This document shows, piece after piece, positions 42,402-59,002 of a stretch of DNA of 64,000 bases. The DNA lies in IMG/VR virus record IMGVR_UViG_3300028800_000060, positions 96,001 to 160,000 of that record, one strand, 5' to 3'. Every line of letters starts with the position of its first letter. Position 1 is the first letter of the stretch. The translations under genes were made by a program, and so were the position numbers. The notes beneath the pieces were generated by a model. It had not been told where the DNA came from. It did no database searches and saw only the letters and a list, made by a program, of their open reading frames with translations. The stretch is from a virus.

Positions 42402-42476
42402 CTGTTCCTTTGTTTGCGTTATTATAACGTTTTCCTTGTTGTGCCGGATAGATGTGCGTGATATACTTGTAATTGA

Positions 42477-42569
42477 TGCTGGCAGAGGCCGCCAAGTTTC
42501 GAAGGGTGACTTGGAGCGTGCAAGTGGATCATATTCAACGCATGACACCCGGGGCGGCTCTGCGCAGCA
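42477..42569 (+). ncRNA. candidate structured RNA (long closing stem plus three-way junction)
   Basis: Starts ~10 nt after TATACT -10 box; 5'/3' ends pair; inner GGGTG/CACCC stem closes two hairpins. Confidence 0.4.
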
Positions 42570-44046: not shown

Positions 44047-44370
44047 ATGATGAAACGGAAACCCAAGGAAGAAAAGCGTTTTGTGGCATTGGCCGATGCT
44101 TTATCCCTCACGGTACCACTTGCCGAAGAACTGTGTCGGGCTGCTGAAAAAACGTGGGCACTCATTGGTCCCGATTGCCTCAATGCCTGTGATGGTCGTA
44201 TGAGCCGGGATGAAGTAGTTGAAGTGGTGATGGATGCCGATCATATCCGGACAAACACTCGGAATCTTTCGGCTGTGCTTCATGAAGTCCTTAAGCACTG
44301 GGAATATTTTCCCATCATTGACATTCTCCTCAGGGAATTTGTGTTTGTGTATAAGTGGTACGAAATATAA
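44047..44370 (+). CDS. hypothetical protein
   Basis: 107 aa with AAGGAG RBS; one of ~10 small co-oriented ORFs at 42.6-44.4 kb. Confidence 0.65.
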   Translation: MMKRKPKEEKRFVALADALSLTVPLAEELCRAAEKTWALIGPDCLNACDGRMSRDEVVEVVMDADHIRTNTRNLSAVLHEVLKHWEYFPIIDILLREFVFVYKWYEI

Positions 44371-44414
44371 GGAAGATGATTGACTTCCTAATTTAAACGT
44401 GCGAGAATAAGATT

Positions 44415-44801
44415 ATGAAAAACAACATTCAATTGATCCTCGATTTAGTTCGTGACCTGCCGCAATTGGAGTTAACGGGAAGCCGTTATTTCAATACCGC
44501 CACTCAATCATCGGATTGGGACTTCATGTTGGATTGCGAATTTGAGGAAAAGATTCCTGTTGACTTCGTGAAGGTTTCGGAACCCTCGTATGACGGCGAT
44601 CCGTTGATTTGTGGCGTGTATTTTTCGGCACTCAGGGATACTCACATCCAGCTTTTGAATTCCTATGACATGCCATTGAAACGGAAGGCTCAAGAGATTC
44701 TCTACGAGTCCGGCGCCTTGTGTGGTGTTTCCAAACAGCAAGCCCGCCGAATTTGGAACGCCGTCATCCGCGCGTTGTTAGTTGATACCTACACATATTG
44801 A
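44415..44801 (+). CDS. minimal nucleotidyltransferase (Pol-beta superfamily)
   Basis: LTGSRYF-x6-SDWDF (GS...DxD motif). Confidence 0.7.
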   Translation: MKNNIQLILDLVRDLPQLELTGSRYFNTATQSSDWDFMLDCEFEEKIPVDFVKVSEPSYDGDPLICGVYFSALRDTHIQLLNSYDMPLKRKAQEILYESGALCGVSKQQARRIWNAVIRALLVDTYTY

Positions 44802-44811
44802 TTCACTCCCA

Positions 44812-44853
44812 GAAGACAACTAGATCCTCTTCCATGAGGATCTGGTTGTCTTC
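44812..44853. terminator. stem-loop terminator
   Basis: GAAGACAACTAGATCCTC...GAGGATCTGGTTGTCTTC. Confidence 0.7.
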
Positions 44854-45354
44854 CAAAGTCATGTTATTATAACGATATTACTGTTGCTAAACCGATTTGA
44901 GACGTGATAATATAGAATGATATGAAGATTACCACAATGTATGGAGAAGTTATTTTTGATGACATGTGCGGACGCATGATCGGTGCAATCTGGCAAGTTG
45001 GTGAATTCGAAAACAGAGCGTATCGTGCCCGCATTTATAAGGAATTTGGTAATGGAATTTATAAATCCAAAACCAATTTATTTGAAACGAGAGAGGAAGC
45101 CTTAAAGTGGATTGCAAACAGCAATACGGAAATGTGATTATTGCAACCATTTCGGTTGCAATTTTACTCTGGTTCCTACCATTTTATGCGGGAGCGTTCC
45201 TAGTTATTCTATGCGGCGCATACGCCGTCTATTGTGTGAGCCGAGGAAAATAAACCGCAAATCTTTTTAAGGGATCTATTAGGGCATATTGACAACTGCC
45301 GTCTAGCATGCTAGAATTATAAATGTAGAGAGAAAGAACAACAGGAGAATTTAT

Positions 45355-45903
45355 ATGAGTTTCAAGCCTATTGAAGGACACACCTCGCTTTTTCGCGCCA
45401 CCGTTCTGTCGGCAGCGCAGGCCGCCACCGTCCAACGCTTCATTGAAGCCAATGGTGGTGATCCCGTGATCCGTAACAAGGATCTTCACACCATTGCCCA
45501 GACCTTGCTCGGGATGAAGTTTTGCCCGTACTTTATTGGGAAAAATGATGCTCTCAAGATCAAGAACCAACCTGGAATGTATGATCTGAGCCGTGTCCGG
45601 GCGAGTACTAAGCCCGAGCCGGTGAAGAAGGTGAAGCCGGCAAAGAAGACCAAGAAGGTGAAGAATCCTGATCCCGCCGAGCCGGCTGTGACCGAACCCG
45701 AACCTGCGCCCGCGGAAACTCCCGTGACCGTGGAACCGGCAACTGCTCCGACTCCGAAGCCGGCAAAGAAGACCAAGAAGGCCGGCAAGGCGAAGCCGAA
45801 GAAGGAAGCGAAGGCGAAGAAGGAAGCAAAGACTTCCACCGAGGAAGTAACACCTGAAGTTCCTGTTGAAATGGTTGTGGGCGAGGACGAGCCCAGTTTG
45901 TAA
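45355..45903 (+). CDS. putative DNA-binding protein: ~85-aa globular domain plus histone-H1-like K/A/P tail (paralogue of 55597-56067)
   Basis: TTGACA/TAGAAT promoter, AGGAG RBS; KPAKKTKK repeats; GC-rich codons. Confidence 0.7.
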   Translation: MSFKPIEGHTSLFRATVLSAAQAATVQRFIEANGGDPVIRNKDLHTIAQTLLGMKFCPYFIGKNDALKIKNQPGMYDLSRVRASTKPEPVKKVKPAKKTKKVKNPDPAEPAVTEPEPAPAETPVTVEPATAPTPKPAKKTKKAGKAKPKKEAKAKKEAKTSTEEVTPEVPVEMVVGEDEPSL

Positions 45904-47295
45904 TATAACCAACGCCGTGAGGGCCACCAATTGGTGTGGCCCTCCTCTCGGTAAGAAATGAAGTCTTTGTCCAAGGCCACATTATTATAACGCTTTCCGC
46001 ATTTTCTTATTGAGTTCCTAATTCAATTCGACTATCATTGAAATATGACGCCCTTAGAACAAACTCAAAAAGAGATTACCCTCGCTGTTAAGATCTTGGA
46101 TCTCTTGATAAAGAACACCGAATACTACGGGTCTTACCGGCTTCGTCGGGCTCGCCGCAGCCTTTTGGAGAGAAACAATATGACGGCGCATATGAGTTAT
46201 CCTAAAGCCGATCCCGAAATCGTCCCCACCGAAGGCAAGTCGGGTTTCAAGTACGTTACTCCCGTTAGCATTTGCATCCATTCCCGTATGGCAACCGGGG
46301 GCCGGGGCGGCCTGCGAATGGTTACCCGCTAAGGAGAAAAAATGCCCAAGTTTTTCTATAATTGGTTATGCTCGCTTTCTGACGAACAAGCCGTCGAAAT
46401 GTGGGAATACTTCGACGAATCATTCACCAACTGCGAAGATGTTGTGGCACACATTTGCATCTCGCATCCGGAAGTATATACTGCATTGTGCTTCGATCCG
46501 GATGACCTGAATCCGAAAGTTGAAATCCCGAGGTCATAAAATGGCAGCAACTAATAAACGCACAAAGAAATCCAAAAAGTCCGAGGAGAAGGTTTTTGTT
46601 ACCGACCTTCTACATCCGGAACGTTTCGATGTAGTGGAAATTTCAGGAACAAACCCCGAAAAGATTGTTGGTTCTGCAACCAACCAATCAGGTGTTTACG
46701 CGTTACGCGACCAATTGCAAGCTGAATTGGATGCCAAGGAAGTTCCACCCGCTGTCAAACGATTCGCTGTGAGGTTTTAAAAATGGACGCCCAAATCCGC
46801 CAAGAATTGTTGTACGCGATCGGTCAAATTCGGGAACTACTGTTAGTGACCAGCAAGGAACTCGAAGATGAATATATGGTCGAGGCTGTCGAAAAAACCT
46901 TCGACCTACTGAAGGATACAGTTCAACGAGCCATAAATATTTGGAATGAGGAACACAATGACGACATTTAAACTCGTTCCAGTAGGTGAAAAACCTTTTC
47001 GTATCGGGCAATATCAGCCGGCACCCACAACAGGAAGTTATTTTTCGGGTCATTACAATCTGGATATGTGTGATAGCCCATCTTCCAACAATCGGTACAC
47101 TCACTTCGATGTGATACAGATTGTAACCGATTCGAGGGCCCAGGCGCAAGAAATCGTCGATATCCTTAATGCCCATTACGGAAAGAAGACCGAAAGATGA
47201 CCCCCTTGGAGAGACAAATCTCTCCAAGGGCATCATTATTATAAATAACACCACGAGATTGGTTCGCCAACTCGACAGACACTAAGGAGAACACA

Positions 47296-47616
47296 ATGAA
47301 GAAGCTATTAGCTGTATTGATCTTGGCAGCAGGAACTATGTTCGCACAATTTTCAGTTGGTATTCACATTGGCCCGATGCCAAGAGTACGTATTGAACAC
47401 CAATCACGTCGTCCGAATGTCCGTTCCATTTGGATCGCAGGACATTGGGATGTAGTCAACAACCATTATGTCTGGCATTCAGGCTATTGGACCCAACCAC
47501 CATATGAAGGCGCACGTTGGATCGCTCCGTCACATGATGGTAAAATGTACCACGATGGTCATTGGGATGGCGACAAAGGCCGCAGAGAAGATGACCACGG
47601 CAAACATCGTCACTAA
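47296..47616 (+). CDS. secreted YXWGXW/WXXGXW-repeat protein
   Basis: Signal peptide; WIAGHW, YVWHSGYW, YHDGHW. Confidence 0.85.
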   Translation: MKKLLAVLILAAGTMFAQFSVGIHIGPMPRVRIEHQSRRPNVRSIWIAGHWDVVNNHYVWHSGYWTQPPYEGARWIAPSHDGKMYHDGHWDGDKGRREDDHGKHRH

Positions 47617-47628
47617 AGGAGAAATAAA

Positions 47629-47778
47629 ATGTTACTACTATTGATTCTGCTTTTGTTGTTATTCGGTTGTGGTGGTGGATACTACGGCTACAATCGTTAC
47701 GGATGGGGCGGCGGCACCGGCATGGGACTCGGCACAGTTCTGCTTATTGTCGTAATCTTCGCTCTGTTCTTTAGGTAA
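47629..47778 (+). CDS. small Gly-rich two-TM membrane protein (DUF3309-like)
   Basis: Manual ORF MLLLLILLLLLFGCGGGYYGYNRYGWGGGTGMGLGTVLLIVVIFALFFR; AAGGAG RBS. Confidence 0.75.
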   Translation: MLLLLILLLLLFGCGGGYYGYNRYGWGGGTGMGLGTVLLIVVIFALFFR

Positions 47779-47891
47779 GTGCTTGGCAGTTTGTTGTTTG
47801 TGATGTGCATTCTTGGAGATGACCCCTTGGAGAGACAAATCTCTCCAAGGGCAATGTTATTATAAATAACACCAGGGAGGAGGTGAAACTA

Positions 47892-47966
47892 ATGTTAGAT
47901 TTCTTTTTGGAAATATTGGGTTTTAGGCCTGCAATGGGTATGGATGCCGGTAGTTTCGAAGAATAA
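47892..47966 (+). CDS. 24-aa peptide
   Basis: Manual ORF MLDFFLEILGFRPAMGMDAGSFEE with GGAGGTGA RBS, own late promoter and terminator. Confidence 0.6.
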   Translation: MLDFFLEILGFRPAMGMDAGSFEE

Positions 47967-47970
47967 ACAC

Positions 47971-47999
47971 AAAAGCCCCGTTATCATAACGGGGCTTTT
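47971..47999. terminator. bidirectional terminator containing a GTTATCATAAC palindrome
   Basis: AAAAGCCCCGTTATCATAACGGGGCTTTT. Confidence 0.8.
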
Positions 48000-49229
48000 T
48001 TCGTCTCCATTCAAATGGTTCCTTTCTGACATGAATAGTATCACTTGATTCGGCGAGTGTGTGGAAACGTCTTGGAATGACTTGTTTTTCTTGTTGACAG
48101 CGCAATAAGATAGATGATATGATTTTGAATATGCGAAATCAACAGCGAAACATTCTACTCCGTATTATCCACGAATACGTGGGCATATCGTATGACCAAT
48201 TGTCCCGCTTGGAAAAGAATGTGTTAAGCCTTGCTGCCACCGGTACTTCCGTGGTGATCACTCTCGATGAATTTGGCGAAATCAATCTGCCGGCTGAAGT
48301 AGCGGAGCTCTTACTCATTTGAGGAACAAATGAATACCGATAAATGCGCGAAGGAATCCGGAGGATGTGGGAAACCGGTAGAGAAATGTAAATGTTGGTC
48401 AACATTACATCATCCGTGGGACTGTGGATGCCATCGGTGTTTATCCGCGGCGCAACGGTGGCAAACGCCCAAAAAGAGGAATAAATGACCGCGCGTGAAA
48501 TGCAGGGGGCTATCGGACAACAGGTTTATCTTCGCGATGGAGATGGATGTTGTTCCTTATTGTTCCTATGCACGGTCGTAGATGTAAAAACCGGTTGGGG
48601 GAAGCCAAGGTTTCTCGTAACACCCGTATCTGGTAAAGGAGAAAGATGGGTTGAATTTTCGAGTATTGAACCCGTCAAATCGGAGATTTCATATCAATCA
48701 AATGCGGAAGTAACCGTAAATAAAACAACGGCCCGATTGACACCGAGCGTCACTTGTGTTAGTATTAAAAAGTTATGAGACTGAAAGACGAGAAATCTTC
48801 CGCCGTGATCGCCGCATATACGGTGGGAACACCCATCCAAAAGATCTACGCCAACCATCGTGTAGGACACGAGGAGATGTACAAGATGTTGCGCAAGAGA
48901 AGTATTCCTCTCCGTGAACTGCACAAAGGTGCTTGTGCGGCGCGCCAGTCAAATAAGATGTCTTGCCGGATTCTTTATTTGCCTGTGGGAGATCCATCTC
49001 CACAGGGAATTATCGATGGAATGACCAAACTGGGTTCCGTAGTAGAATACCGAGTCAGGAACTAGCCATGAAACTAACACGGCAACAGATTGATTTATTT
49101 GTCGAAGAATTGCGACGGACTGCCTCCTCTTGGGAACGGTACGGTAATACGGATAACACCGATCGTGATATCCGGGAAGATTTACAAGTAATTGCCCGAA
49201 ACTGTAACGCGTCTTAAAAGGAAAAGAAA

Positions 49230-49574
49230 ATGACCTGCCAATATCGATATTACGGACCTGGTCAAGGTCCGTCCGAGAATTCGCGCACATGTGGCATGCC
49301 TTGTGGAGAAAAGTATTGTTCGGCGCATGCACACACCTACCATTCATCCGCGGCACAGGCTCGTCAGGAGTTTTACGTGCATCCGACGTGTGCAGGCCTG
49401 GAAGCTCTCGACGACAAGGACGTATTCGATGAGTTGGTGCTGGCCAATACCTACCCTCAAGACTGCCCGGACTGCGGCACTCCGATGGTGTGCGTAGCAG
49501 TGGGGTCGTCTACTACGACCTGGGAGTGCCAGCAATGTCACCCCGGGTTTACGGAAGCAAGTTTGACAATGTAA
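49230..49574 (+). CDS. Zn-finger protein
   Basis: C..C..C..H and CPDCG...WECQQC. Confidence 0.6.
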   Translation: MTCQYRYYGPGQGPSENSRTCGMPCGEKYCSAHAHTYHSSAAQARQEFYVHPTCAGLEALDDKDVFDELVLANTYPQDCPDCGTPMVCVAVGSSTTTWECQQCHPGFTEASLTM

Positions 49575-49831
49575 CGCAAATTAAAGGAAAAGAAAATGAC
49601 ACAAAATACTCCTGCAAAGGAACTAAAGACGCCGGCGGCCCATATCCCCGGGAAGGCCGATTACCGAATCGATCAAATCCGCCGGTATATGCGGCGGCAT
49701 GCCGGCTTCGCGGTTTTCATCAATGAAACCGTTGAAGTTAAAATGTTGCTAGCTGATGTTTTCGCCGGGGGATTGACCCGGGCGGAAATCAAGCAGTTTT
49801 TCAACAATGCCAGAAAGGTAGGAATGAACCA

Positions 49832-50440
49832 GTGACATTAGAACAATTGCAACAAAGATTCCCTGATGCCACTGAGGACACATGGTATCAGCACTCCAAT
49901 GGGGGTGGATGGATCCAGAATACGGCACGCGTGGAAACATCGGTGTATGTGGGTCCGGATGCTACGGTATCCGGAAATGCCCGGGTATCCGGAAATACCT
50001 GGGTATCCGGAAACGCCCAGGTATTCGGAAATGCCTTTGTATCCGGAAACGCCCAGGTAACCGGAGATGCCCAGGTGTTTGGAAATGCCCGGGTATCCGG
50101 AGATGCCTGGGTATCCGGAAACGCCCAGGTAACCGGAGATGCCCTGGTATCCGGAAACGCCCAGGTATCCAGAAATGCCCGGGTGTTTGGAAATGCCCAG
50201 GTATCCGGAAATACCTGGGTATCCGGAGATTCATGGGAAACTTCACCCCTTCAGATCCAAGGCACTCGACATTTCCTCAATATGACAACCAAGTCTCTAT
50301 TGAAAATTGGATGCCATTCACATACCATCCAATGGTGGTTGAATAATTATAGGATCATTGGACAAAAAGAAGGATATACTCCGGATCAAATAAAGGAGTA
50401 CAAAAAGTATATTGATCTCTTTAAATCATTGTATATTTGA
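49832..50440 (+). CDS. hexapeptide-repeat protein, paralogue 4, with extra C-terminal domain
   Basis: Head plus repeats plus SPLQIQGTRH...IGCHSHTIQWWL...QIKEY domain. Confidence 0.85.
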   Translation: MTLEQLQQRFPDATEDTWYQHSNGGGWIQNTARVETSVYVGPDATVSGNARVSGNTWVSGNAQVFGNAFVSGNAQVTGDAQVFGNARVSGDAWVSGNAQVTGDALVSGNAQVSRNARVFGNAQVSGNTWVSGDSWETSPLQIQGTRHFLNMTTKSLLKIGCHSHTIQWWLNNYRIIGQKEGYTPDQIKEYKKYIDLFKSLYI

Positions 50441-51334
50441 TCCGCATTTTGTTGTTGCGGCTAGTTTTATACTCTGCTATCATCAAAATATGAAAAAGCA
50501 GACTGTTCGAAACGACTTTGCCGTGAAGCACGCCGCTTGCTTTACTACATTTTCCACGTCGCGCGCCGCGTTCGACTACAACAAAGCGATGTTAGGATCG
50601 GTGTTTATGGTCCGCACCCAGAACGGTTGGAAGAACTTTTTCTAGGATCCGAGTTCGGGGAGGCTGCCGCGCAAGGTGTTGCCGTTGCTATGACGCCAAC
50701 CGAGGTCCCGACAGCCTCCTCCGAAGGTAACCCAAAATGCAAACTGAATACGATTTGACGGCAGTAGCTTCTCAATGTAAAATCAAAGGCATTCCGCGGG
50801 CAATTGCACAGTATTCGCATCCCGGAGATGCTTTCCTTTTTCTGGTCCTTATCGAACAGGACCACAACTTCGTTATATGGACATATAATGCTCAGGTTAC
50901 TGGTTTTTCCGATGGGCATTATTTTCATTTCTACCCCGACATTTTCTTTGGCAGGCCGGATCGTCGGCATGCATTCTCGGAAGCACTGGCGTGCTACAAA
51001 TATCGACTCGGGCTTTATTGCCACTAAAGGAGTAAAATGACAGCACAACAATCCAGGAAGCTCACACTCGGGACCGTCGTGTCACTGACGAGTACTTTCG
51101 AACTGAAGAAACCACAACGCCATAGTGCAATGGTGGTTGCATTGAATGAGCGGGAACATTGGGACCCGTTGGTGACTGTCCGTGTCCGGGATGGACGTAT
51201 TTTGGACTTCGACGCTCACTGGGTCCACACGGACGAGACAATCAAGGACCTCCTTCTTCGAGGATGGCGCAAACAAATTACATCAATGGAAGAGGATCAA
51301 ATCCGTTTCATTCTCCGAGAGGAGGATATGTAAA

Positions 51335-51484
51335 ATGGAAAACTACAACATTTTGGATTACTACGAGTCTGATTACGATGGTTGGGATGAAGAAGACGAG
51401 TTTGATATCTTCGAGGACTCCTACGGAGGTTACTCCGGTCTCCCAATCATCGATGACGATGACGATGACGATGAGTGGTTCTAA
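51335..51484 (+). CDS. 49-aa highly acidic peptide
   Basis: MENYNILDYYESDYDGWDEEDEF...IIDDDDDDDEWF; GGAGG RBS. Confidence 0.7.
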   Translation: MENYNILDYYESDYDGWDEEDEFDIFEDSYGGYSGLPIIDDDDDDDEWF

Positions 51485-51973
51485 CAATTTCCTTCTAGGA
51501 AGGTGAATCCAAATGGATAATCAAGTTACCACTCTATACCTGAATCAGCACGATAACCAATACTACCTCTCCACGAAAGATTCTTATGGACCCACTTATT
51601 TTCGTGAGGGATCAAAAGTATTGTGGACCGGTGGTCCCACATGGTTTAAATCGGAGGCAGAGGCCCTTCGGGCAGTTTACAATAGTCCCGGTACTTTCAT
51701 CGTGAAGCCGGGACGCCTCTAGGCGCGCATAAAACCAAAATAATCCAAAATACCGATTCATACCATTCAAAATAAAGGCATAGGAAGGGAAAGATTCCAT
51801 ATAAAGGAACCTTTCCTATTCCATGGACTCGTTATTATAAGTGGCCCATGAGTCTCACCATTCAATCGATTCCTTAAGTGATATCGTAGTATCATTTTCT
51901 TTTGGCAACGAGCTTGGATCGTCTGGGAATGCTCTTGACATTCATAGTATGATTTGATATCATTGATAATGAT

Positions 51974-52333
51974 ATGACACTAGAACAATTGCAACAAAAA
52001 TTCCCTCATGCCACTGAGGACACATGGCATCAACACACCAACGGATCCGGTTGGATCCAGAATACAGCACAGGTGGCATCATCGGTGTACGTGGGTGAGG
52101 ATGCTCTGGTATACGAGAATGCCTCAGTATCTGGATTTGCCACGGTGACCGGAAACGCCCGGATATATGGAAACGCCGGCATCTCTGGAAACGCCCTTGT
52201 ATACGGAAATGCCCGCGTTTTTGGTCATGCTCGGGTATCCGAAGATACTTGGATGGCCGGAGATGTCGAGGTATCTGGAACTGCCACAGTATCCGGAAAT
52301 TCTCAGGTATTTGGAAATGTTCGTTTGTGTTAA
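51974..52333 (+). CDS. hexapeptide-repeat protein, paralogue 5
   Basis: Same head and repeats; TTGACA promoter at 51935. Confidence 0.85.
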   Translation: MTLEQLQQKFPHATEDTWHQHTNGSGWIQNTAQVASSVYVGEDALVYENASVSGFATVTGNARIYGNAGISGNALVYGNARVFGHARVSEDTWMAGDVEVSGTATVSGNSQVFGNVRLC

Positions 52334-52347
52334 TAGGGATATAGTAT

Positions 52348-52839
52348 ATGACACTACAACAATTGCAACAAAAATTCCCTGATGCCACTGAGGACACATG
52401 GCATCAGCACACCAACGGATCCGGTTGGATCAAGAATACGGCATATGTGGAACCATCGGTGTATGTGGGTCCGGAGGCTACGGTATCCGGAGATGCCTGG
52501 GTATCCGGAAAGGCGCGCATCTATGGTAATGCCCAAATATTTGGTAATGCCTGGATATGCGGAAATGTTTGGGTATACGACGTTGCCTGGGTATACGAAG
52601 ATGCCTTTTTGTGCGGAGATGCCCAGGTGTCCGGAACTGCCTCGGTATTTGGCTATGCCTGGATCTATGATAATGCCTGGGTATCCGAAAATGCCCAAAT
52701 ATTCGGAAAAGCTCAGATATACCAGAATGCCGGCGTGTCCGGACACGCATGCGTTTGTGATAACGCTCAGGTATTCGGAAATGCATTCGTATCCGGATAC
52801 GCCCATATGTGCGGAGATGCCTTTGTGTGTGGAATATAA
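52348..52839 (+). CDS. hexapeptide-repeat protein, paralogue 6
   Basis: Same head and repeats. Confidence 0.85.
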   Translation: MTLQQLQQKFPDATEDTWHQHTNGSGWIKNTAYVEPSVYVGPEATVSGDAWVSGKARIYGNAQIFGNAWICGNVWVYDVAWVYEDAFLCGDAQVSGTASVFGYAWIYDNAWVSENAQIFGKAQIYQNAGVSGHACVCDNAQVFGNAFVSGYAHMCGDAFVCGI

Positions 52840-52889
52840 TAATGCGTTCTTGACATCCTTATTCTGATTTATTATCATTGTTGACATAT

Positions 52890-53306
52890 ATGACACTTGA
52901 TATTGATGTTAAGAAGTACAAGGATGAAATCACGGTCAACGACCTAGTGATCCGGCTCTCCAATATACCCGAAGATCATCCGGAGGATATGCAATATCTC
53001 CGTGATGAGAACAGCCGTGCCTGGGAAACGGTCGAACGCCATGACCAGTCAAACCGCAAAAAGGACCTCGTCATTCGTGAAATGCAGAACGAACTTGATC
53101 AACTCCGGCTCGCTCAGTCCGTCCCGGGTCCGACCGGTCCGACCGTGATCGAATGGCTCAAGAATGTCCAGAACGGTGAGGAGTACAAGAAGTCCGACAA
53201 GATTAACCTCATCAAGGCCGTCCGACTTCTCACCTCGATGAGTTTGAAAGATTCGAAGGACCTGGTCGACACCTATGTTCCGAGTGCCACGCTCAAGCTT
53301 CTTTAA
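52890..53306 (+). CDS. coiled-coil protein with ribosomal bL12 C-terminal-domain-like region
   Basis: DKINLIKAVRLLTSMSLKDSKDLVD matches the bL12 KI.VIK.VR..TGL.LKEAK.LV pattern. Confidence 0.75.
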   Translation: MTLDIDVKKYKDEITVNDLVIRLSNIPEDHPEDMQYLRDENSRAWETVERHDQSNRKKDLVIREMQNELDQLRLAQSVPGPTGPTVIEWLKNVQNGEEYKKSDKINLIKAVRLLTSMSLKDSKDLVDTYVPSATLKLL

Positions 53307-53318
53307 TATCCAACCAAT

Positions 53319-53352
53319 CCGGCACCGGAGAGTTGTGGCTCTCCGGTGCCGG
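53319..53352. terminator. GC-rich stem-loop
   Basis: CCGGCACCGGAGAG...CTCTCCGGTGCCGG. Confidence 0.7.
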
Positions 53353-54197
53353 GTACCATATACACTGTTATGATAACAATCTCCTCTTGACTAACCGGCC
53401 ATGGATATGTTATCATGTATTATGATCGTTAAGATGCGGCTCCATATGAAGCACGAAAAGAAACGAATATCCGAAGCCGAAAGATTGGAACAACTTCTCA
53501 AAAAGGCTTCCAAAGATGCTGCCGAGATCCTCGCTTCCGTGGATCCCAAAGCTGCATTCAACCGAAAACTGATGAATATCCTGAAGGGACGGTAATTCAT
53601 TTTGATACACATTTTATTTTGTTCTCCGTTGAATCACAAACACGACACGGATACCCTACACGTCCGATACTATCTGTCCATAGGATATCATTCGTATTAC
53701 GAGCCGAGTTATTTCCGTGCCGGACAAGGACTGTATATGTCTGCGCCGACATATTTCCTTACTAAAGAGGAAGCCCATTCAGCCGGCGCGGCAATGGATT
53801 ATGATGTCATTGACCGTGACTGCTAGATAAACGCTTGTTCATCCATAATAGTTAACTATCCAGTTAAGTAATTATGGAGTTAAACCATATGGATATGGAA
53901 TATTTCAACAATAAATGGTTTAAATTATATCGCCGTGCGTATGAGAGAGTCGGAAGGGGATGATGGAAGAAAATAGAGTGATATAGGGATGGCTAGCCTT
54001 GGATCCCGGTGTCTTATCATTAGGGCCTTTGGATCTCTATTAAGTCCTTTGGATCCCTATGCCGTTAACCCAACACTCCAACCCCTCCGGAACACCAACG
54101 GCCCCAGTGTACCACAAAGGGATCTAATAGCACGGGATCTATTAGTACATCCACATTTACCTATATTCTTCCGTATTTTTTATGCTACAATAGACTT

Positions 54198-54422
54198 ATG
54201 ATTGACACAAAGACATTCATAGCCCGTCCTGATTCGTTTGATATCACGATCGGTGAGTGGATCGGCCTCTTTGGCGCATCCTATCGGGATAATATCCTGG
54301 ATAAACCGGGAACTGAGGTTATTATGTCCCGTGCCAAGAAAACCGAGGATCCTGTTACCGCTCACAATACAGGAATCGATTGGAATTCCCTTCCGTCGGA
54401 TGAAGCCGGAGCTACGGACTAA
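54198..54422 (+). CDS. hypothetical protein
   Basis: 74 aa; TACAAT -10 box 6 nt before ATG. Confidence 0.55.
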   Translation: MIDTKTFIARPDSFDITIGEWIGLFGASYRDNILDKPGTEVIMSRAKKTEDPVTAHNTGIDWNSLPSDEAGATD

Positions 54423-54921
54423 AGGAGAACCATATGAAATCCCTAAGTTGGATGGTCCTAATTACCTGGATGGCTCCGTGTCCCATATTACAAACCGCGG
54501 TTATTATGGTTATCCTGTTCCGTATGTCCTTTTCCTTTGGAATGCGGAACTTCTAAGGATCCCGGAGCCCTGGAGGCTCCATGGAACACGTTATCATAAC
54601 ACACGGAGCGGCATAACAGTCGGAATAGGGAATATCCATACTTTCGTTATAATAACGTGGCCATGGAAAACCCCACCGGATCCCGAAGGACCCGATGGGG
54701 ATTCGTACAACCCGGGCATTTCCGGACACCCAGGGATCTAATTGTCCCAGGGAGTGATGGACGTGATTCTATAGCTTCCCATCAAAGCCCGCAACTCCTT
54801 AGCCGCCAGCTTATTGATGGATTCCTCCAGAAAGCGGAATGCTTCCACGGAGATTTCACCGTCTAACATCATGATATCCAGTTTGATTTGAAAGTGGTTC
54901 ATCGTTTTTCTCCTGATTCTA

Positions 54922-55128
54922 TTAGAGCCCTCGGATCTCTTGATGGATCCGGGCTTCAGTGGCCACAAGACGGCGACGGCGAGCTTCAATGGCTGCCAGC
55001 CGGTCGCGGAGATCTCCTCGATACTCGGGCTTCAGACTGTCAAGGCAGTTATAGCCCATCGCCAGCGCCAGATTACAGTCCCGGACTGTATTGATTTCGT
55101 TGATTTCCGGATACGTTTTCATTTCCAT
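54922..55128 (-). CDS. hypothetical protein
   Basis: 68 aa, downstream of 55135-55500 in a minus-strand operon. Confidence 0.55.
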   Translation of the reverse strand: MEMKTYPEINEINTVRDCNLALAMGYNCLDSLKPEYRGDLRDRLAAIEARRRRLVATEARIHQEIRGL

Positions 55129-55134
55129 AAGGAT

Positions 55135-55500
55135 CTATTGTACCTCCTGGGCCCTGTGGGCTTTATCTTCGATCATCTGGACAAGCTGCTTACGATACTT
55201 GCCGATGCGGATCACGGGGGTGGATCCCCGATGCCACAGCTTGCGGCACTGTTGCAGTTGCTCGCCGTTCAAGCGGCGCCCAGCCATAAGCTGTCGGGCA
55301 TACTGGCCAAACAGGCGGGCATCGGCCTGTTGGAGCCCACGTTCGTTATCGTCAATCGTGCATCCGGATGCACGTTCTAACTCAGTCTGACGTGCATGCA
55401 GTGCTAATAGAGCCTTCTCCAGCCACGTGTCGTTCGTTTCGAGCTGATGTAACACCTTTTCTGGTGTCCAATCAGTGAGTTTACGATAATTCACGTACAT
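55135..55500 (-). CDS. conserved phage hypothetical protein
   Basis: W.EKALLAL..RQT..E...T...N..G...DA...KY..QL pattern; GGAG RBS. Confidence 0.7.
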   Translation of the reverse strand: MYVNYRKLTDWTPEKVLHQLETNDTWLEKALLALHARQTELERASGCTIDDNERGLQQADARLFGQYARQLMAGRRLNGEQLQQCRKLWHRGSTPVIRIGKYRKQLVQMIEDKAHRAQEVQ

Positions 55501-55556
55501 AAGATCTCCGTTCTATTAGCGCCCCTAGAGTGCGTCAACACTGAGGAGCGCTAATA

Positions 55557-55590
55557 CAACGTCCCCCACGATAAGACGTGGGGGACGTTG
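55557..55590. terminator. stem-loop after 55597-56067
   Basis: CAACGTCCCCCACG...CGTGGGGGACGTTG. Confidence 0.7.
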
Positions 55591-55596
55591 CGTACT

Positions 55597-56067
55597 CTAG
55601 AGAGCGGATTCGATAGCGTTGAGTATGCTCTCTTCATCGACGGCGGGAGCGTCGATGAGCTTCACTTCAGTGTTGACGACGGGGGCTGGAGTCTTCTTTG
55701 CTTTCGACTCGCGACGTGGGCGCGATTCGCGCTTTGCTTTCACTGCGGGGGACGCGGGAGCGTCGATGAGCTTCACTTCAGTGTTGACGACGGGGGCCGG
55801 GGCGGACTTGGCGGACTTCGCGACGTGCAGACGAGACAAATCGAAGTTACTGGTCCCCTTGACGCGGAGTGCCGCGTTTTTGCCAATAAAATAGTGCACA
55901 TATCGGTGCCCGAATTGCTCTGAAGCGATGACGTGCAGTATTTTGCTCTGGATGACGGGGTTGCCCCCGTTCGCTGCGATGTACTTCTGCGTGATATCGA
56001 ACTGTGCCTGGTTGACTGCTTTCGCTGCGAACAGAGACGCGTGTCCTTCGAGCTTGGTGAATGACAT
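55597..56067 (-). CDS. paralogue of 45355-45903 (globular domain plus basic A/P/K tail)
   Basis: MSF..EGH.SLF.A...I.ANGG.PVI..K.LH.IA...YFIGKN.AL..K....DLSR; internal duplication PAPVVNTEVKLIDAPA. Confidence 0.8.
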   Translation of the reverse strand: MSFTKLEGHASLFAAKAVNQAQFDITQKYIAANGGNPVIQSKILHVIASEQFGHRYVHYFIGKNAALRVKGTSNFDLSRLHVAKSAKSAPAPVVNTEVKLIDAPASPAVKAKRESRPRRESKAKKTPAPVVNTEVKLIDAPAVDEESILNAIESAL

Positions 56068-56445
56068 AGTGGTTTTCTCTCTTTTCTTGACGTTATCGTT
56101 ATCGTAAGCTCACTTTGGCTGTGGAGCTTAGTCTACTCTACTTGAGAGAAGAGTAGATCGTACGAAACGCAGCAAACGCGATGCAAAGTGCGAACACTAC
56201 AACGATGTCTGTTACGTTCGCGCGTACTACACTGAGAAGCGTTTCAATCATTGTCTTTGTCTCGTTTCTGCGTTTTTTGTACTAGATCGAGCATAGCAAC
56301 AAAAAAGCGAAAAAAGAGCGAACAAAACATTAAAAATCATTAATTTTTTGATGCACACTTGTAATACTCAAATTCCAGACGCTTAGACGTGCTCTAGAGA
56401 CGCTTACGTGCTCTGTATCGACGCTATGACATAGACGTGCTCCAG

Positions 56446-56645
56446 ACGTCTGCAAACGCAAAAGAACAGCAGTCTATGTCTAGATCTAGACTACTGCGTT
56501 ATGCGACTCTTGAGCGAACAAAGAGCGAAATAGCGATTCTGAGCGTTTCTGAGCGTTTTTTGACGTGTTAAGCGATTCATGCGTGCTTTGTGTCAACTAT
56601 GCTCAACAAATCGCTTGGAACGTCTGCAAACGCAAAAGAACAGCA
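56446..56645 (+). repeat. 26-bp direct repeat in the divergent intergenic region
   Basis: ACGTCTGCAAACGCAAAAGAACAGCA at 56446-56471 and 56620-56645. Confidence 0.9.
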
Positions 56646-56805
56646 TTCTACGAACGCTTCAGAACTGCATTTGACGTCTTAGCGTTCGCATGCGGAAAAA
56701 ACAGTGTAATTTTTACACATAGTACTTGAAGTACTGCGAATTTTTCGTTTTCGCTTTTTATTCTACTTGACACGTTTTGTCCATACTCGCTATGCTGAAA
56801 TCACT

Positions 56806-57159
56806 ATGAAAACTATGCAAGTTATCGTATCAGACGCAGTAGACGAAAAGACGTTCAGCGTCGATTTCGACGAAACGATCATTGACAACAGAGCATGCTA
56901 TAGCATGCTCGACAAAGTGACGTACGCGTACACTGTTGAATATGCGAACGCTCGTAACGCTTGTTACGAATTCGCAGCTATGCATTTCAAGCAAGTGCTC
57001 TCGAACTGCATTGAATTCGAGAGTGAAGACGAGCTTTACATGAGCGACATTCGCGCGCTGTTCAGCATAGCGAACACGCTAACGTCTGAGTTCTTCGTTG
57101 ATATCGTTACGCGCGTACTCTTCTCTGATAGCTGTAGCTGTGATATATCTGTCAAGTAG
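56806..57159 (+). CDS. acidic protein with no Gly/Pro/Trp
   Basis: TTGACA(56767)-18-TATGCT promoter then ATG; 117 aa, about 20 D/E vs 9 K/R. Confidence 0.65.
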   Translation: MKTMQVIVSDAVDEKTFSVDFDETIIDNRACYSMLDKVTYAYTVEYANARNACYEFAAMHFKQVLSNCIEFESEDELYMSDIRALFSIANTLTSEFFVDIVTRVLFSDSCSCDISVK

Positions 57160-57220
57160 TCATAGCGTTCAATACAGAGCACTGTTTATTCTACGTATAC
57201 AGTGCTCTCAGTTAAACGCT

Positions 57221-57487
57221 ATGACTACTGACAGAATGAGCAAAGAACAGTATAAGCACGTTATGCGTACGCGTTTCGAGCGTCTAAGCTTTCAGCGATG
57301 TGCGAACTGCGACGAAATGACGCTGTATCGCGATGTGCAAACTGAACGCGTAGCGTGCATTGAATGCTCGTACGTCGAATACGAAGCACACGTGCACGTG
57401 ACGCATGCGCACACGTCGATTTCAGAGTGCAACTACGATGCTAAGACTATCGCAGCACGTATCATCGCACGTGCACGTGCACACTAG
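57221..57487 (+). CDS. Zn-ribbon protein with no Gly/Pro/Trp
   Basis: CANC-x15-CIEC; start codon lies within hairpin 57161-57223. Confidence 0.6.
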   Translation: MTTDRMSKEQYKHVMRTRFERLSFQRCANCDEMTLYRDVQTERVACIECSYVEYEAHVHVTHAHTSISECNYDAKTIAARIIARARAH

Positions 57488-57501
57488 TGCAGAATTCAAC
57501 G

Positions 57502-57695
57502 TGTGATTGGAGTTCACACTGTGCTTTGGAGGCACATGTGATTGGAGTTCACACGTCAAGTGTTACTTTACGTGTGCGGTGGTTGTACACTGTGCTTTGG
57601 AGGCACATGTGATTGGAGTTCACACGTCAAGTGTTACTTTACGTGTGCGGTGGTTGTACACTGTGCTTTGGAGGCACATGTGATTGGAGTTCACA
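57502..57695 (+). repeat. tandem hairpin array (35/71/71-nt period), TGGAG loops
   Basis: TGTGC-TTTGGAG-GCACA x3 and TGTGA-TTGGAGT-TCACA x4; two identical linkers. Confidence 0.9.
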
Positions 57696-57851
57696 GTGTA
57701 CGGCAGTTATTGGGGGTTCCCTGGGTATATGCTTTCGCATGATAGGCAAAACGCAAAGGCCGCAAAGGCCCCAAAGGTCCCAAAAACATGGGAAATCCAA
57801 ACCAAGCTACAATCGTGAAACTTCAATGACAGTAGTGTCTATATCAGGATT

Positions 57852-58603
57852 CTCTATTCCAAAAAATTTTCTGGCAACTTAGATTTAGGAATTTTTCCTT
57901 GAGGATTATCACATTTATGTAAAATAAATTTTTTTGGTGGTATTTCACCATTGCAGAGATGAATTAAAATATTAGGATTTCTAGAAAGACGATCATTGTA
58001 CCACAAACAGCCGCCAACAAGTGGTCGTTTTATTTACTTTAGTCCAGGTGCCATAACGTACTCTATTCCAAAAATTTTTTCTGAACATAATTGAGATTCC
58101 TGAAATCCACAAAATTTTCCCCAATTCCTAAAGAAAAATTAATAGCATCTAGTTCCTTTGCAAAGGCATACTCCCATGTGGATTGATCAAAATATTCTGC
58201 TCCTAATTCCAGTGCATATGCATAATCTGAAGCCAACCAGTTTTTAATTTTAACTCGATACATGTAATCGGCCCAGAAGTATTTCACGGAGTTCAGATGC
58301 ATAGGGACTCCTATTCAATAATAGCTTAAGATAGAATAGGTAAATATCGTTAATAAATTTTTTGTGTGCCATAACGCTAAAAAAATTTTCGGAACCAGGA
58401 TTCTTTCTGTTTTGTAGCAAGAGTATGTAAAAAACCCCCAAGTTTGACTAGACAGCCGCAACAAATATCTTTATCATATAGGGAAGCAATCCTAACTTTG
58501 GATATCTGATATTTTCCTAAATCGGTCTGGCCGCAATAATCGCAGCGATATACGGTTTTACTTGTGTGTGCCATAATGTACTCTATTCCAAAAATTTTTT
58601 CTG
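57852..58603. repeat. dispersed A-tract repeat
   Basis: GTGCCATAAYGTACTCTATTCCAAAAATTTTTTCTG at 58048 and 58568; partial copies at 57852 and 58363. Confidence 0.8.
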
Positions 58604-59002
58604 GGCCTATAAACCTGCCCACCACAACTCTCACATTTGTACCATTCCGAACCCGATATCCGAGGATAAATAGATTTCTTAGAATGACCGAACCAATAAC
58701 ATTTAAAGGAACTCCAGTAATTCTGAGAAGAACTCTTTTTGAAGTCCCAGGCAGGATTTAAAGCACTTAATAGGGAAATCAATACAAAAAGGGAAATGCC
58801 AAAAATAATGCGAACGTTGTTACTCATAATACCTTCCTTTTAGCCAAAAAGATACCTTTAAGGGATCTTAATTTACCAAGAATCAGACAAACATCAAACC
58901 ATTCGGCACTACCGAAATCCTTTTGATGATTCTTCATTAAATCTAGTACCGAACATTCAATAAATCTTAGTTCTTCGGTAATAAATCTTAGTTCTTCGGC
59001 AA

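What the first reader, a model, noticed from the sequence alone, without database searches (positions are those of the whole stretch)
56125..57508. GG/CC-free DNA island whose genes contain no Gly, Pro or Trp
Seen: reading base by base, 56783-57508 (726 nt, roughly 45% GC) has no GG or CC dinucleotide. The wider 56125-57508 has only five (56375, 56442, 56617, 56694, 56781), whereas ~70 per 726 nt would be expected at this composition. Both ORFs inside (117 aa and 88 aa) therefore lack Gly (GGN), Pro (CCN) and Trp (TGG). The depletion also covers non-coding DNA and codon junctions, so selection acts on the DNA. Palindromes such as ACGT, TCGA, GTAC, TGCA and CGCG are abundant, so this is not generic restriction-site avoidance. 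The island holds divergent strong promoters at the + to - strand switch. Inference: (a) the phage modifies a base in a GG/CC context and this patch must stay unmodified for host RNAP, the replication initiator or terminase; or (b) it is first-entering or first-expressed DNA hidden from a defence keyed on GG/CC (Cas9 NGG or type I-F CC PAMs, Ssp CCA phosphorothioation, CCGG/GGCC/CCWGG restriction), with the two genes as counter-defence. Either would be an undescribed sequence-level stealth or modification-exclusion system.
Basis: partly seen in the sequence, partly recalled or inferred. Interest (0 to 1): 0.93.

Follow-up and report, generated by a model that had tools for sequence, protein, structure and literature searches.

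The report
GG/CC-free early gene cassette in phage
A small optional block of first-expressed genes in an uncultured T4-like phage is written with no GG or CC in its DNA, so its proteins lack glycine, proline and tryptophan; selection keeps it that way in relatives, which implies that something still unidentified in infected cells reads that two-letter step.

Summary
Window 56782-57508 has no GG or CC, and 56124-57508 has five. The next longest gap in the 175.7-kb genome is 120 nt (iid P about 3e-32).

The island is identical in at least 10 independent metagenome assemblies, so it is not chimeric. It is an optional cassette in the variable early region of an uncultured T4-like myovirus:
- a 37-aa membrane peptide;
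- a 117-aa acidic protein;
- an 88-aa zinc-ribbon protein.

A consensus sigma70 promoter lies 9 nt before the first rightward start codon. Relatives have cassette promoters 6-7 nt before their start codons, implying leaderless mRNAs.

The ban acts on the nucleic acid:
- Recoding the same proteins with genome codon usage expects about 9 GG/CC per gene.
- At codon junctions, 1 is seen against 63 expected.

It is maintained by selection. Homologues 33-55% diverged in DNA keep it (1 GG/CC each, against 24 and 42 expected), and so does a non-homologous gene in a relative's cassette. It is strictest in ORFs (3 seen, 196 expected) and looser in spacers. One relative's cassette is interrupted by normal DNA, and two complete relatives lack the island.

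Best reading: each gene is individually protected from an unidentified GG/CC-reading activity. No cytosine- or guanine-modifying enzyme was found in the phage.

This scan noted similar islands before in unrelated phages; they share no detectable sequence with this one.

The parts
56124..57508 (.). GG/CC-depleted island: 5 GG/CC against about 136 expected
56782..57508 (.). Core with no GG or CC at all; it covers the whole rightward two-gene unit, from the promoter spacer to the first hairpin of the downstream array
56138..56251 (-). 37-aa single-pass membrane peptide gene with 0 GG/CC. Homologues lie in L011 (6863-7003, 46 aa) and L013 (885-1016, 43 aa)
56343..56371 (-). Weak candidate leftward promoter (TTGAGT-17-AAAAAT, 8 of 12). 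The leftward GG/CC-free gap (56375 down to 56123) starts just upstream of its -35 box
   Evidence: inference
56252..56766 (.). Non-coding control region: no GG/CC in 56252-56336 and O/E 0.10 in 56337-56766. It carries direct repeats (a 31-nt unit twice, a TAGACGTGCTC unit twice, AGCGAA-type repeats). Relative G001 shares the motifs AAAGCGAA..AGCGAA, TAGACGTG and GTCTGCAA
56767..56796 (+). Strong sigma70-type promoter TTGACA-18-TATGCT. The ATG lies 9 nt after the -10 box, so the leader is predicted to be 0-3 nt. The only GG/CC here (56781) sits in the spacer
56806..57159 (+). 117-aa acidic (pI 4.2) helical protein with no Gly, Pro or Trp. Distant homologues P0004 and P0005 (41-43% identity) also lack all three
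57148..57236 (+). Very stable intergenic hairpin (-53.8 kcal/mol, z -8.9). It encloses the stop codon of gene 1 and the start codon of gene 2, so it probably couples their translation or is a processing site
   Evidence: (I1)
57221..57487 (+). 88-aa zinc-ribbon protein (CxxC...CxxC) with no Gly, Pro or Trp. Its homologue P0003 in L011 is 65% identical
57499..57711 (+). Three tandem 71-nt units of hairpins with TTGGAG-type loops, at the right border. They hold the first GG after the island. Copy number differs (2 or 3) between metagenome contigs. Probably terminators for the converging transcription units
56106..56129 (.). Left-border hairpin (AAGCTC...GAGCTT) that carries the first GGs to the left of the island
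55597..56067 (-). Flanking 156-aa gene of ordinary composition with a Lys/Ala/Pro-rich repeated tail. Its 165-aa relative lies inside L011's cassette and is also GG/CC-normal

Best explanation
**Shown**
- This is an optional gene cassette in a variable early region of an uncultured T4-like myovirus.
- It holds three tiny genes: a membrane peptide, an acidic helical protein and a zinc-ribbon protein.
- A consensus sigma70 promoter lies so close to the first rightward start codon that its mRNA should have little or no leader. Relatives show the same geometry for four more cassette genes. With GG banned, no canonical GG-containing (GGAGG-type) Shine-Dalgarno sequence is possible.
- Purifying selection on the nucleic acid keeps the ORFs free of the duplex step GG:CC. 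It acts in every reading frame and equally for GG and CC. It holds in diverged homologues and in a non-homologous gene of a relative's cassette.

**Inferred**
- The ban protects each gene singly against an activity that reads GG/CC and whose damage is local. Such an activity could edit, adduct, nick or block DNA at that step on either strand, or cut or modify the transcript.
- These first-expressed genes can then still be transcribed and translated into correct protein while the rest of the DNA is affected.
- Their products probably neutralise that activity or its consequences, that is, they act as counter-defence.

A host immune enzyme is the more likely candidate. The eukaryotic parallels are ZAP reading CpG and APOBEC3 reading TC/CC.
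For: - Uniqueness and size of the effect.
- Nucleic-acid level: about 9 GG/CC per gene are expected for the same proteins and 0 are seen. Junction GG/CC: 1 seen, 63 expected.
- Ongoing selection: the zinc-ribbon genes of the window and L011 differ at 85 of 258 aligned nt. The 117-aa gene and its L013 homologue differ at 156 of 282. About 27% of random substitutions would create GG/CC, so 24 and 42 are expected; 1 is seen in each.
- Homologues P0004 and P0005 also lack Gly, Pro and Trp.
- L011's 94-aa cassette gene is not homologous yet has 0 GG/CC in 285 nt.
- Per-ORF pattern: cassette ORFs of three phages have 3 GG/CC against 196 expected. Non-coding parts run from O/E 0.1 to 0.66. The tolerated GG/CC lie in non-coding DNA: promoter spacers, just upstream of -35 boxes and a hairpin overlapping a promoter in L011; a promoter spacer and the inter-promoter region in the window.
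- L011's cassette is split by a normal 165-aa gene, a GC-rich terminator and 264 nt at O/E 1.27.
- GG/CC symmetry fits a reader of duplex DNA or of either DNA strand.
- Early, leaderless design: promoter-to-ATG distances of 6-9 nt in five cassette genes.
- Optional and mobile: absent from complete relatives G001 and G002 and not seen in seven further syntenic stretches of relatives. L011's cassette is flanked by 32-nt direct repeats and carries repeated 35-nt promoter units. This matches the PeSL elements of T4-like hyperplastic regions (PMC2839356, PMC4122927).
- The acidic proteins (pI 4.2-4.7) fit the usual make-up of DNA-mimic inhibitors. That comparison rests on my own knowledge and is a weak hint only.
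Against: - No reader is identified and the host is unknown. The closest cultured phages share under 40% identity in gp6.
- The three proteins match nothing informative: Pfam and PHROGs gave no significant hit, the AF2 models are poor (pLDDT 55 and 65), and Foldseek, the Atlas and 50,697 phage genomes gave nothing.
- Promoters and leaderless starts are predicted, not mapped.
- If the attack hits the whole genome, it is unclear how a phage with thousands of GG/CC elsewhere survives long enough to be rescued.
- In the window the 430-nt inter-promoter region is also tenfold depleted. A purely per-ORF model does not predict this unless that region is functional or transcribed.
- The per-ORF inference leans mostly on one relative (L011).
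Confidence: 0.45

Rival explanations
1. RNA- or translation-level design. The mRNAs, not the DNA, are under selection. On this view the transcripts avoid GG (Shine-Dalgarno-like GGAG/GAGG/AGGA words, RNAP pause signals, GGA-binding repressors) and CC. Alternatively they avoid a ribonuclease or RNA-modifying toxin that acts on translated RNA.
For: - The ban is strictest in ORFs and looser in non-coding stretches.
- The genes look leaderless or translationally coupled, so they do without a Shine-Dalgarno sequence.
- L011's leftward 5' UTR carries normal GG/CC and a GAGGTG Shine-Dalgarno sequence, while the ORF behind it is clean for 136 nt.
Against: - One RNA reader would have to recognise both GG and CC on the sense strand. 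The perfect GG/CC symmetry is natural for duplex DNA but not for RNA.
- The window's inter-promoter DNA is also tenfold depleted.
- No RegB-type GGAG nuclease is encoded.
- Rho-type YC avoidance does not fit, because TC is at O/E 0.99.
Confidence: 0.2
2. Regional DNA stealth against a sequence-keyed host nuclease. With no GG/CC the region has no PAM for CRISPR types that use CC or NGG (I-F, II-A), and no GG/CC-containing restriction or phosphorothioate sites. The early counter-defence locus therefore cannot be targeted.
For: - GG/CC symmetry and the depletion of non-coding DNA in the window.
- Genome-wide depletion of the I-F PAM CC is reported for Pseudomonas phages (PMC12174588), and motif depletion more generally (PMC4246573).
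- Early-injected regions that lack type I restriction motifs decide sensitivity in Autographiviridae (PMC12455610).
Against: - The rest of the genome is rich in GG/CC (O/E 1.16 and 1.30), so cleavage elsewhere would still kill.
- T4-like phages have no fixed first-entering end.
- L011's cassette contains 760 nt of normal GG/CC between clean ORFs, and GG/CC lie within 4-35 nt of the clean genes. PAMs that close could direct targeting into the genes.
- Under this model non-coding DNA should be at least as clean as coding DNA; the reverse is seen.
- Four of the five tolerated sites in the window are CCA, which argues against Ssp-type CCA marks.
Confidence: 0.15
3. Exclusion of the phage's own DNA mark. 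The phage modifies a base in a GG/CC context, or carries a nuclease or methylase pair reading such a word, and these genes must stay unmarked.
For: - The genome has a 242-aa N6_N4 methylase with a DPPY motif. Its closest solved relatives (5hek, 5hfj) are named 'Adenine specific DNA methyltransferase (DpnA)' by their depositors. I recall them as Helicobacter pylori M1.HpyAVI, reported to act on GAGG-type words.
- This methylase overlaps an unknown 234-aa ORF. It has no detectable homologue in G001 or G002, which also lack the island.
Against: - DPPY is the motif usual for adenine, not C or G, methylation, and the specificity is unknown.
- No ThyA-type hydroxymethylase, TGT/DpdA or C5-methylase is present.
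- Neighbouring early genes are GG/CC-normal and, as in T4, would be read by the host RNAP (my own knowledge).
- The co-occurrence of island and methylase rests on a single genome.
Confidence: 0.1
4. No function: a mutational relic (hypermutation by a CC-specific deaminase) or the inherited composition of a foreign donor.
For: - The cassette is horizontally mobile and compositionally unlike the genome: 44% against 38% GC, and Thr ACG in 10 of 16 codons against 12% genome-wide.
Against: - Deamination would lower G+C and break ORFs. Here G+C is above the genome mean, CG and GC are enriched, and the ORFs are intact and conserved.
- The ban persists through 85 and 156 nucleotide differences, which cannot be inheritance alone.
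Confidence: 0.03

Closest known systems
Motif avoidance in phage genomes: restriction-site avoidance and CRISPR PAM depletion (PMC4246573; I-F PAM CC in Pseudomonas phages, PMC12174588)
   Same: A short DNA word is under-represented through selection, and CC/GG is a known PAM.
   Different: - Known cases are mild, genome-wide statistical depletions of words of mostly 2-6 nt.
- Here the ban is absolute and confined to a few genes of 0.1-0.35 kb each.
- It costs three amino acids, and the rest of the genome over-uses GG/CC.
Leading or pre-early regions that lack restriction sites and encode anti-restriction functions: the T5 first-step-transfer DNA without EcoRI sites (my own knowledge) and the early-injected region of Autographiviridae (PMC12455610)
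   Same: The first-acting genes are free of the word that a defence reads, while the rest of the genome is not.
   Different: - Those cases depend on staged DNA entry from a fixed end and on 5-7-bp or bipartite motifs.
- This is an internal, optional cassette in a T4-like phage, presumably with headful packaging.
- The word is a dinucleotide, and the ban follows ORFs rather than a contiguous leading region.
PeSL (promoter-early stem-loop) cassettes of T4-like hyperplastic regions (PMC2839356, PMC4122927)
   Same: Small novel ORFs, each with its own early promoter and stem-loop. They are flanked by repeated regulatory units, vary in presence between relatives, and lie between core blocks.
   Different: In the abstracts read and the literature searches made here, no dinucleotide ban, no Gly/Pro/Trp-free proteins and no leaderless design turned up for PeSL cassettes.
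Dinucleotide footprints of eukaryotic antiviral factors: CpG depletion under ZAP, TC/CC depletion under APOBEC3 (my own knowledge)
   Same: A host factor reading a two-letter step shapes viral sequence, including synonymous sites. CC/GG is the APOBEC3G context.
   Different: - Those footprints are partial and genome-wide.
- No bacterial counterpart reading GG/CC turned up in the searches made here.
- In this island CpG is enriched, not depleted.

Membership tests
PeSL-type cassette of a T4-like hyperplastic region | Lies in a variable region between conserved core blocks, and its presence differs among relatives | tested here: met
   - A conserved 121-aa gene lies to the left and neck, tail and terminase genes to the right.
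- L011 is syntenic.
- G001 and G002 share only the 121-aa gene near the island.
- They have no island anywhere.
PeSL-type cassette of a T4-like hyperplastic region | ORFs individually flanked by repeated early-promoter/stem-loop units | tested here: inconclusive
   - Met in L011: 35-nt promoter units at 94% identity before two genes, and 32-nt direct repeats flanking the cassette.
- In the window there is one consensus promoter, with hairpins at both borders, but no repeated promoter unit.
Restriction-site or PAM avoidance | The avoided word equals the recognition word of a defence present in the host | not testable with these tools
   The host is unknown. The closest cultured phages share under 40% aa identity in gp6.
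Restriction-site or PAM avoidance | Depletion applies to the DNA regardless of coding status, so non-coding DNA is at least as clean as coding DNA | tested here: not met
   ORFs are at O/E 0.015 (3 of 196). Non-coding DNA is at 0.1-0.66, and up to 1.27 in the stretch interrupting L011's cassette.
First-entering (FST/leading-region) anti-restriction DNA | Located at the genome end that enters the cell first | tested here: inconclusive
   - The island is about 22 kb from the contig end, and the contig has no terminal repeat.
- IMG/VR classes G000 as 'linear' and G001/G002 as having direct terminal repeats.
- Physical ends were not mapped.
Phage self-modification of C or G with an unmodified patch | The genome encodes an enzyme that modifies cytosine or guanine in DNA | tested here: not met
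   - No match to PF00303, PF01702 or PF00145, with positive controls ringing.
- The one clear PF01555 methylase carries the DPPY motif usual for adenine methylases.
- A 574-aa protein with a weak, below-cut-off methylase-like N-terminus is shared with the island-less relatives.
Anti-CRISPR (acr-aca) operon | A small Acr gene or genes followed by a helix-turn-helix Aca repressor behind a strong promoter | tested here: not met
   A strong promoter and small acidic proteins are present, but no HTH or known Aca/Acr family is detected. The last gene is a zinc ribbon.
Leaderless mRNA genes | The transcript starts at, or within a few nt of, the start codon | not testable with these tools
   Predicted only from geometry. 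The ATG lies 6-9 nt after the -10 hexamer in five cassette genes of three phages. No 5'-end data are available.

The most novel reading that the evidence does not exclude
Bacteria, or competing phages, possess a widespread and undescribed activity that reads the GG:CC dinucleotide step in DNA or RNA. It would be a prokaryotic counterpart of ZAP/CpG or APOBEC3/CC. Phages of unrelated lineages would then have convergently evolved dinucleotide-free, leaderless, immediate-early counter-defence genes that stay intact under that attack. The lineages are this T4-like group and the phage-plasmids and sediment phages noted earlier by this scan.
Probability: 0.4. Interest if true: 0.95.

Novelty: new variant of a known kind. 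Interest (0 to 1): 0.86.

Why it matters
- An absolute ban on a dinucleotide, kept by selection at the cost of three amino acids and confined to a few first-expressed optional genes, is a direct footprint of a molecular reader that nobody has described.
- The signature is easy to compute. It would also give a new sequence-only way to find immediate-early counter-defence genes.

Tried and rejected
- **Chance or protein composition.** Rejected.
- **Chimera or assembly artefact.** Rejected. The only SNP inside the island (57207, C to A, in L006) creates no GG/CC.
- **A narrower banned word.** All five tolerated sites in the window are TCC, and 10 of 22 in L013, but L011 tolerates ACC and GCC. No consistent longer word emerges.
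- **Other avoided k-mers.** None.
- **TTTGGAG border motif as a general signal or RegB-type site.** It is not enriched in the window (17 seen, 10.9 expected) and no RegB is present.
- **Known RNA families** in the window, L011 and L013. None.
- **Folding of the inter-promoter region.** Only modest (z -2.8 and -2.5).
- **Function of the proteins.**
  - Pfam gave only sub-threshold hits.
  - PHROGs gave one weak hit, phrog_1568 at E 2e-4.
  - AF2 models reached pLDDT 55 and 65.
  - Foldseek against the PDB gave nothing at E of 0.001 or better.
  - The Atlas returned only unnamed phage clusters.
  - tblastn against 50,697 phage genomes found no match.
- **More relatives of the cassette.** Six collection scans in all, using the single zinc-ribbon protein and alignments A1 and A3 against viral, metagenome and genome contigs, found nothing beyond L011, L013 and P0004. 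P0004's contig DNA could not be fetched.
- **Link to phage tRNAs.** The phage encodes tRNA-Trp and tRNA-Pro but not tRNA-Gly. Cassette codon choices do not track the phage's tRNA set consistently.
- **Sequence relation to the GG/CC-free islands noted earlier by the scan.** None.
- **Literature.** Searches found no description of such islands. DarT1 has no defined GG motif.
Full report
**1. The observation**

GG or CC occur at 56123, 56375, 56442, 56617, 56694 and 56781, and then not until 57509.

The window is bases 96001-160000 of a single 175,698-bp contig. In that genome the three longest GG/CC-free gaps (728, 252 and 175 nt) all lie here, and the next longest is 120 nt. In 500-nt windows the observed/expected ratio averages 1.20 (sd 0.20) genome-wide and is 0.00-0.12 in the island.

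GG and CC are over-used in the genome as a whole (O/E 1.16 and 1.30). In the island they stand at 0.03 and 0.04, while CG (1.77) and GC (1.62) are enriched and G+C (44%) is above the genome mean of 38%.

The chance probability of the 726-nt run is about 3e-32. Five or fewer in 1385 nt has P about 7e-54. No shuffle out of 2000 gave a gap above 143 nt. No other 3- or 4-mer is notably avoided, so the rule is specific to GG/CC.

**2. It is real DNA**

The 114-aa form of the first island protein is called on 17 contigs. Ten were fetched, from ENA, JGI and Logan assemblies of different samples. All match the window at 99.9-100%, and L001 spans both borders (53416-57890). The only differences are one SNP inside the island, which creates no GG/CC, and two or three copies of the 71-nt array at the right border.

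**3. What the genome is**

The window encodes T4-type baseplate proteins (gp5, gp6, gp7, gp8 families) and a Dda-like helicase. Neck, tail-sheath-stabiliser and terminase genes follow to the right. The best cultured relatives (Pelagibacter, Methylophilales and Synechococcus myoviruses) share under 40% identity in gp6. This is an uncultured T4-like lineage with an unknown host.

**4. Anatomy of the island**

From left to right:
- A hairpin at 56106-56129 carries the first GGs on the left.
- A 37-aa membrane-peptide gene lies on the minus strand (56251 to 56138).
- A 515-nt non-coding region carries direct repeats.
- A consensus sigma70 promoter follows (56767-56796, TTGACA-18-TATGCT). The island's last tolerated CC is in its spacer.
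- The 117-aa gene starts 9 nt after the -10 box (56806-57159).
- An 89-nt hairpin of -53.8 kcal/mol (z -8.9) encloses the stop codon of that gene and the start codon of the next.
- The 88-aa zinc-ribbon gene runs from 57221 to 57487.
- Three 71-nt hairpin units (57499-57711) hold the first GG after the island.

The genes on both sides are on the minus strand and have ordinary composition. The rightward pair is therefore a small unit of opposite orientation set into a leftward-transcribed region of small unknown genes.

**5. The ban is on the nucleic acid**

The three proteins lack Gly, Pro and Trp. From the genome's amino-acid usage, P for 205 residues is about 2e-13. That alone does not explain the DNA. 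Recoding the same two proteins with the genome's codon usage gives 9.0 and 9.2 GG/CC, and none of 5000 simulations reached zero. The codons AGG, CGG, TCC, ACC and GCC are never used. Shuffling codon order predicts 63 junction GG/CC over seven cassette genes of three phages; one is seen. The avoidance is therefore independent of reading frame.

**6. Relatives keep it**

*L011.* The zinc-ribbon protein has one relative, P0003 (65% identity), on a 27.8-kb contig, L011. That contig is syntenic with this genome: the 121-aa left neighbour is 44% identical, and the neck to terminase genes give 57-79% identity.

In L011 these ORFs are clean or nearly so:

| L011 ORF | GG/CC |
|---|---|
| Zinc-ribbon ORF | 1 in 261 nt |
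| Non-homologous 94-aa acidic gene | 0 in 285 nt |
| 46-aa membrane-peptide gene | 0 in 141 nt |

The membrane peptide is homologous to the window's 37-aa ORF (53% identity). A third copy lies on contig L013.

*L013 and P0004.* An exhaustive HMMER search with the 117-aa protein found two distant homologues, P0004 and P0005 (41-43% identity). Both lack Gly, Pro and Trp. P0005's contig, L013, has 22 GG/CC in 1166 nt and one in the gene.

*Divergence test.* The window and L011 zinc-ribbon genes differ at 85 of 258 aligned nt. The 117-aa gene and its L013 homologue differ at 156 of 282. About 27% of random substitutions would create GG/CC, so 24 and 42 would be expected, and one is seen in each. 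This is continuing purifying selection, not inheritance.

**7. It is optional**

Two complete relatives from IMG/VR, G001 (179,687 bp) and G002 (176,794 bp), share about 62% aa identity with this genome. They were fetched whole. Their longest gaps are 129 and 112 nt, and they have no island anywhere. Near the island they share only the 121-aa gene. G001 keeps a control region of about 300 nt that is poor in GG/CC and shares short motifs with the window's non-coding region. Seven further syntenic stretches of other relatives show no island within the DNA fetched.

L011's cassette is flanked by 32-nt direct repeats and carries repeated 35-nt promoter units. This is the layout of the PeSL elements that shuffle small early genes in T4-like hyperplastic regions (PMC2839356, PMC4122927).

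**8. Leaderless design**

With GG banned, a canonical GG-containing (GGAGG-type) Shine-Dalgarno sequence cannot exist. In five cassette genes of three phages a good sigma70 promoter ends 6-9 nt before the ATG:
- window 56767;
- L011 6489 (TTGCAT-18-TATACT);
- a second L011 copy, TTGCAT-17-TATTCT, with the ATG at 6863 (read from the sequence);
- L011 7877, an extended -10 box;
- L013 850 (TTGACA-17-TATGAT).

The second window gene is embedded in the large hairpin, which suggests translational coupling. These transcript starts are predictions.

**9. Where the ban is strict**

Over eight cassette ORFs in the three phages, 3 GG/CC are seen against 196 expected (O/E 0.015). Non-coding parts vary:

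| Non-coding stretch | O/E |
|---|---|
| Window inter-promoter region | 0.10 |
| L013 non-coding stretches | 0.21-0.52 |
| L011 promoter units and terminator | 0.37-0.52 |
| L011 leftward 5' UTR plus inter-promoter DNA | 0.66 |

The tolerated sites all lie in non-coding DNA. In L011 they sit in a promoter spacer, just upstream of -35 boxes and in a hairpin that overlaps a promoter. In the window one sits in the promoter spacer and the rest in the inter-promoter region.

L011's cassette is interrupted by three ordinary stretches: a 165-aa gene of ordinary composition (related to the window's 156-aa left neighbour), a GC-rich terminator, and 264 nt at O/E 1.27.

The rule therefore follows single genes rather than a contiguous zone. 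Coding DNA is cleaner than the non-coding DNA that would be cheaper to purge.

**10. What this says about mechanism**

The equal ban on GG and CC points to a reader of the duplex step, or of either DNA strand.

The per-ORF pattern and the interrupted cassette argue against models in which any nearby site is fatal, such as PAM-guided or restriction cleavage. They favour an agent whose effect is local to the gene that carries the site. Candidates are:
- base editing or adducts that corrupt or block the template;
- nicks;
- a roadblock to transcription;
- an attack on the transcript.

Genes that must work first, and correctly, would then be purged. Spacers and UTRs could tolerate hits. Functional non-coding elements such as operators and hairpins would be partly purged.

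An RNA-level explanation remains possible but needs one agent to read both GG and CC. Rho-type YC avoidance does not fit, because TC is normal.

Mutational decay is excluded by the high G+C, the intact conserved ORFs.

A self-mark model is weak:
- No cytosine- or guanine-modifying enzyme is detected.
- Neighbouring early genes are normal in composition.
- The cassette is optional.

The only lead for a self-mark is a 242-aa methylase with the DPPY motif usual for adenine methylases.
- It has no homologue in G001 or G002.
- Its nearest solved relatives (5hek, 5hfj) are named 'Adenine specific DNA methyltransferase (DpnA)' by their depositors.
- From memory they are Helicobacter pylori M1.HpyAVI, reported to act on GAGG-type words.
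- Its own specificity here is unknown.

**11. The proteins**

None of the three matches a known family. The two larger proteins were also modelled; the models are of low confidence and fold searches gave nothing. The 117-aa family and L011's 94-aa protein are acidic (pI 4.2-4.7), which is compatible with, but no evidence for, DNA-mimic inhibitors.

**12. Comparison with what is known**

The nearest concepts are:
- motif avoidance (PMC4246573, PMC12174588);
- site-free leading regions that encode anti-restriction functions (PMC12455610; T5 first-step-transfer DNA, from my own knowledge);
- PeSL cassettes;
- the dinucleotide footprints of ZAP and APOBEC3 in eukaryotic viruses (from my own knowledge).

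None of these shows an absolute, gene-scale dinucleotide ban that removes three amino acids. Literature searches found no description of one.

**13. Earlier notes of this scan**

The scan has reported GG/CC-free islands in unrelated phages: phage-plasmids of Rhizobium, SSU5-like phage-plasmids and sediment phages. It has also reported strand-specific TC/CC-free islands in jumbo phages. I did not test those. The island proteins here share no detectable sequence with them. If those notes hold, the trait is convergent.

**14. Verdict**

- It is a selection-maintained, nucleic-acid-level ban on GG:CC in an optional, probably immediate-early and leaderless cassette of a T4-like phage.

Noticed in passing
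window 57499-57711: The 71-nt tandem hairpin array differs in copy number between metagenome contigs. L001-L003 and L007 have two copies; the window, L004, L006 and L008 have three.
   Followed up: partly
L011 7592-7855: After a strong GC-rich terminator (7612-7635) comes about 220 nt of GG/CC-rich non-coding DNA, just upstream of the clean zinc-ribbon gene. It may be a structured RNA. There was no Rfam match.
   Followed up: partly
window 55597-56067 (-), window 45355-45600 (+), L011 7094-7591: A family of 156-165-aa proteins has a conserved N-terminal domain and a Lys/Ala/Pro-rich, histone-H1-like repeated tail. One copy always lies beside or inside the cassette. It matches no Pfam or PHROG family and may bind DNA.
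   Followed up: partly
G000:C1:59917-61297 (L034 2918-4298): A 242-aa N6_N4 methylase with a DPPY motif overlaps an unknown 234-aa ORF by 53 nt. The pair follows the gp41 helicase and a dCMP deaminase. Neither ORF has a detectable homologue in relatives G001 or G002. It may be a phage-borne restriction-modification-like pair.
   Followed up: partly
window about 41000-56000: This stretch has raised G+C (0.41-0.55, against 0.38 for the genome) and few long ORFs. It looks like a hyperplastic region of many small, probably acquired genes.
   Followed up: no
window 56806-57487: Codon usage in the cassette is unlike the genome's. Thr is ACG in 10 of 16 codons and ACA in none (genome: 12% and 40%). 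Ser AGC is used in 8 of 17 (genome 6%). The phage encodes tRNA-Thr(UGU), tRNA-Trp(CCA) and tRNA-Pro(UGG), but no tRNA-Gly.
   Followed up: partly
L036 3959-4110 (G001): In the island-less relative, the first leftward gene (36 aa) lies 12 nt after the -10 box of a TTGACA-16-TAGAAT promoter. Short leaders seem to be a feature of this locus even without the ban.
   Followed up: no
L011 10505-11095 (-): The relative encodes a 196-aa protein with a GmrSD_N (DUF262) domain (E 1e-10), about 2.4 kb to the right of its cassette. No counterpart was recognised in the window.
   Followed up: no
window 57800-59000 (-): Several small minus-strand ORFs to the right of the island share a recurring stretch, translated as KNFWNRV and similar. 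It is probably a repeated intergenic regulatory element read through by the ORF finder.
   Followed up: no
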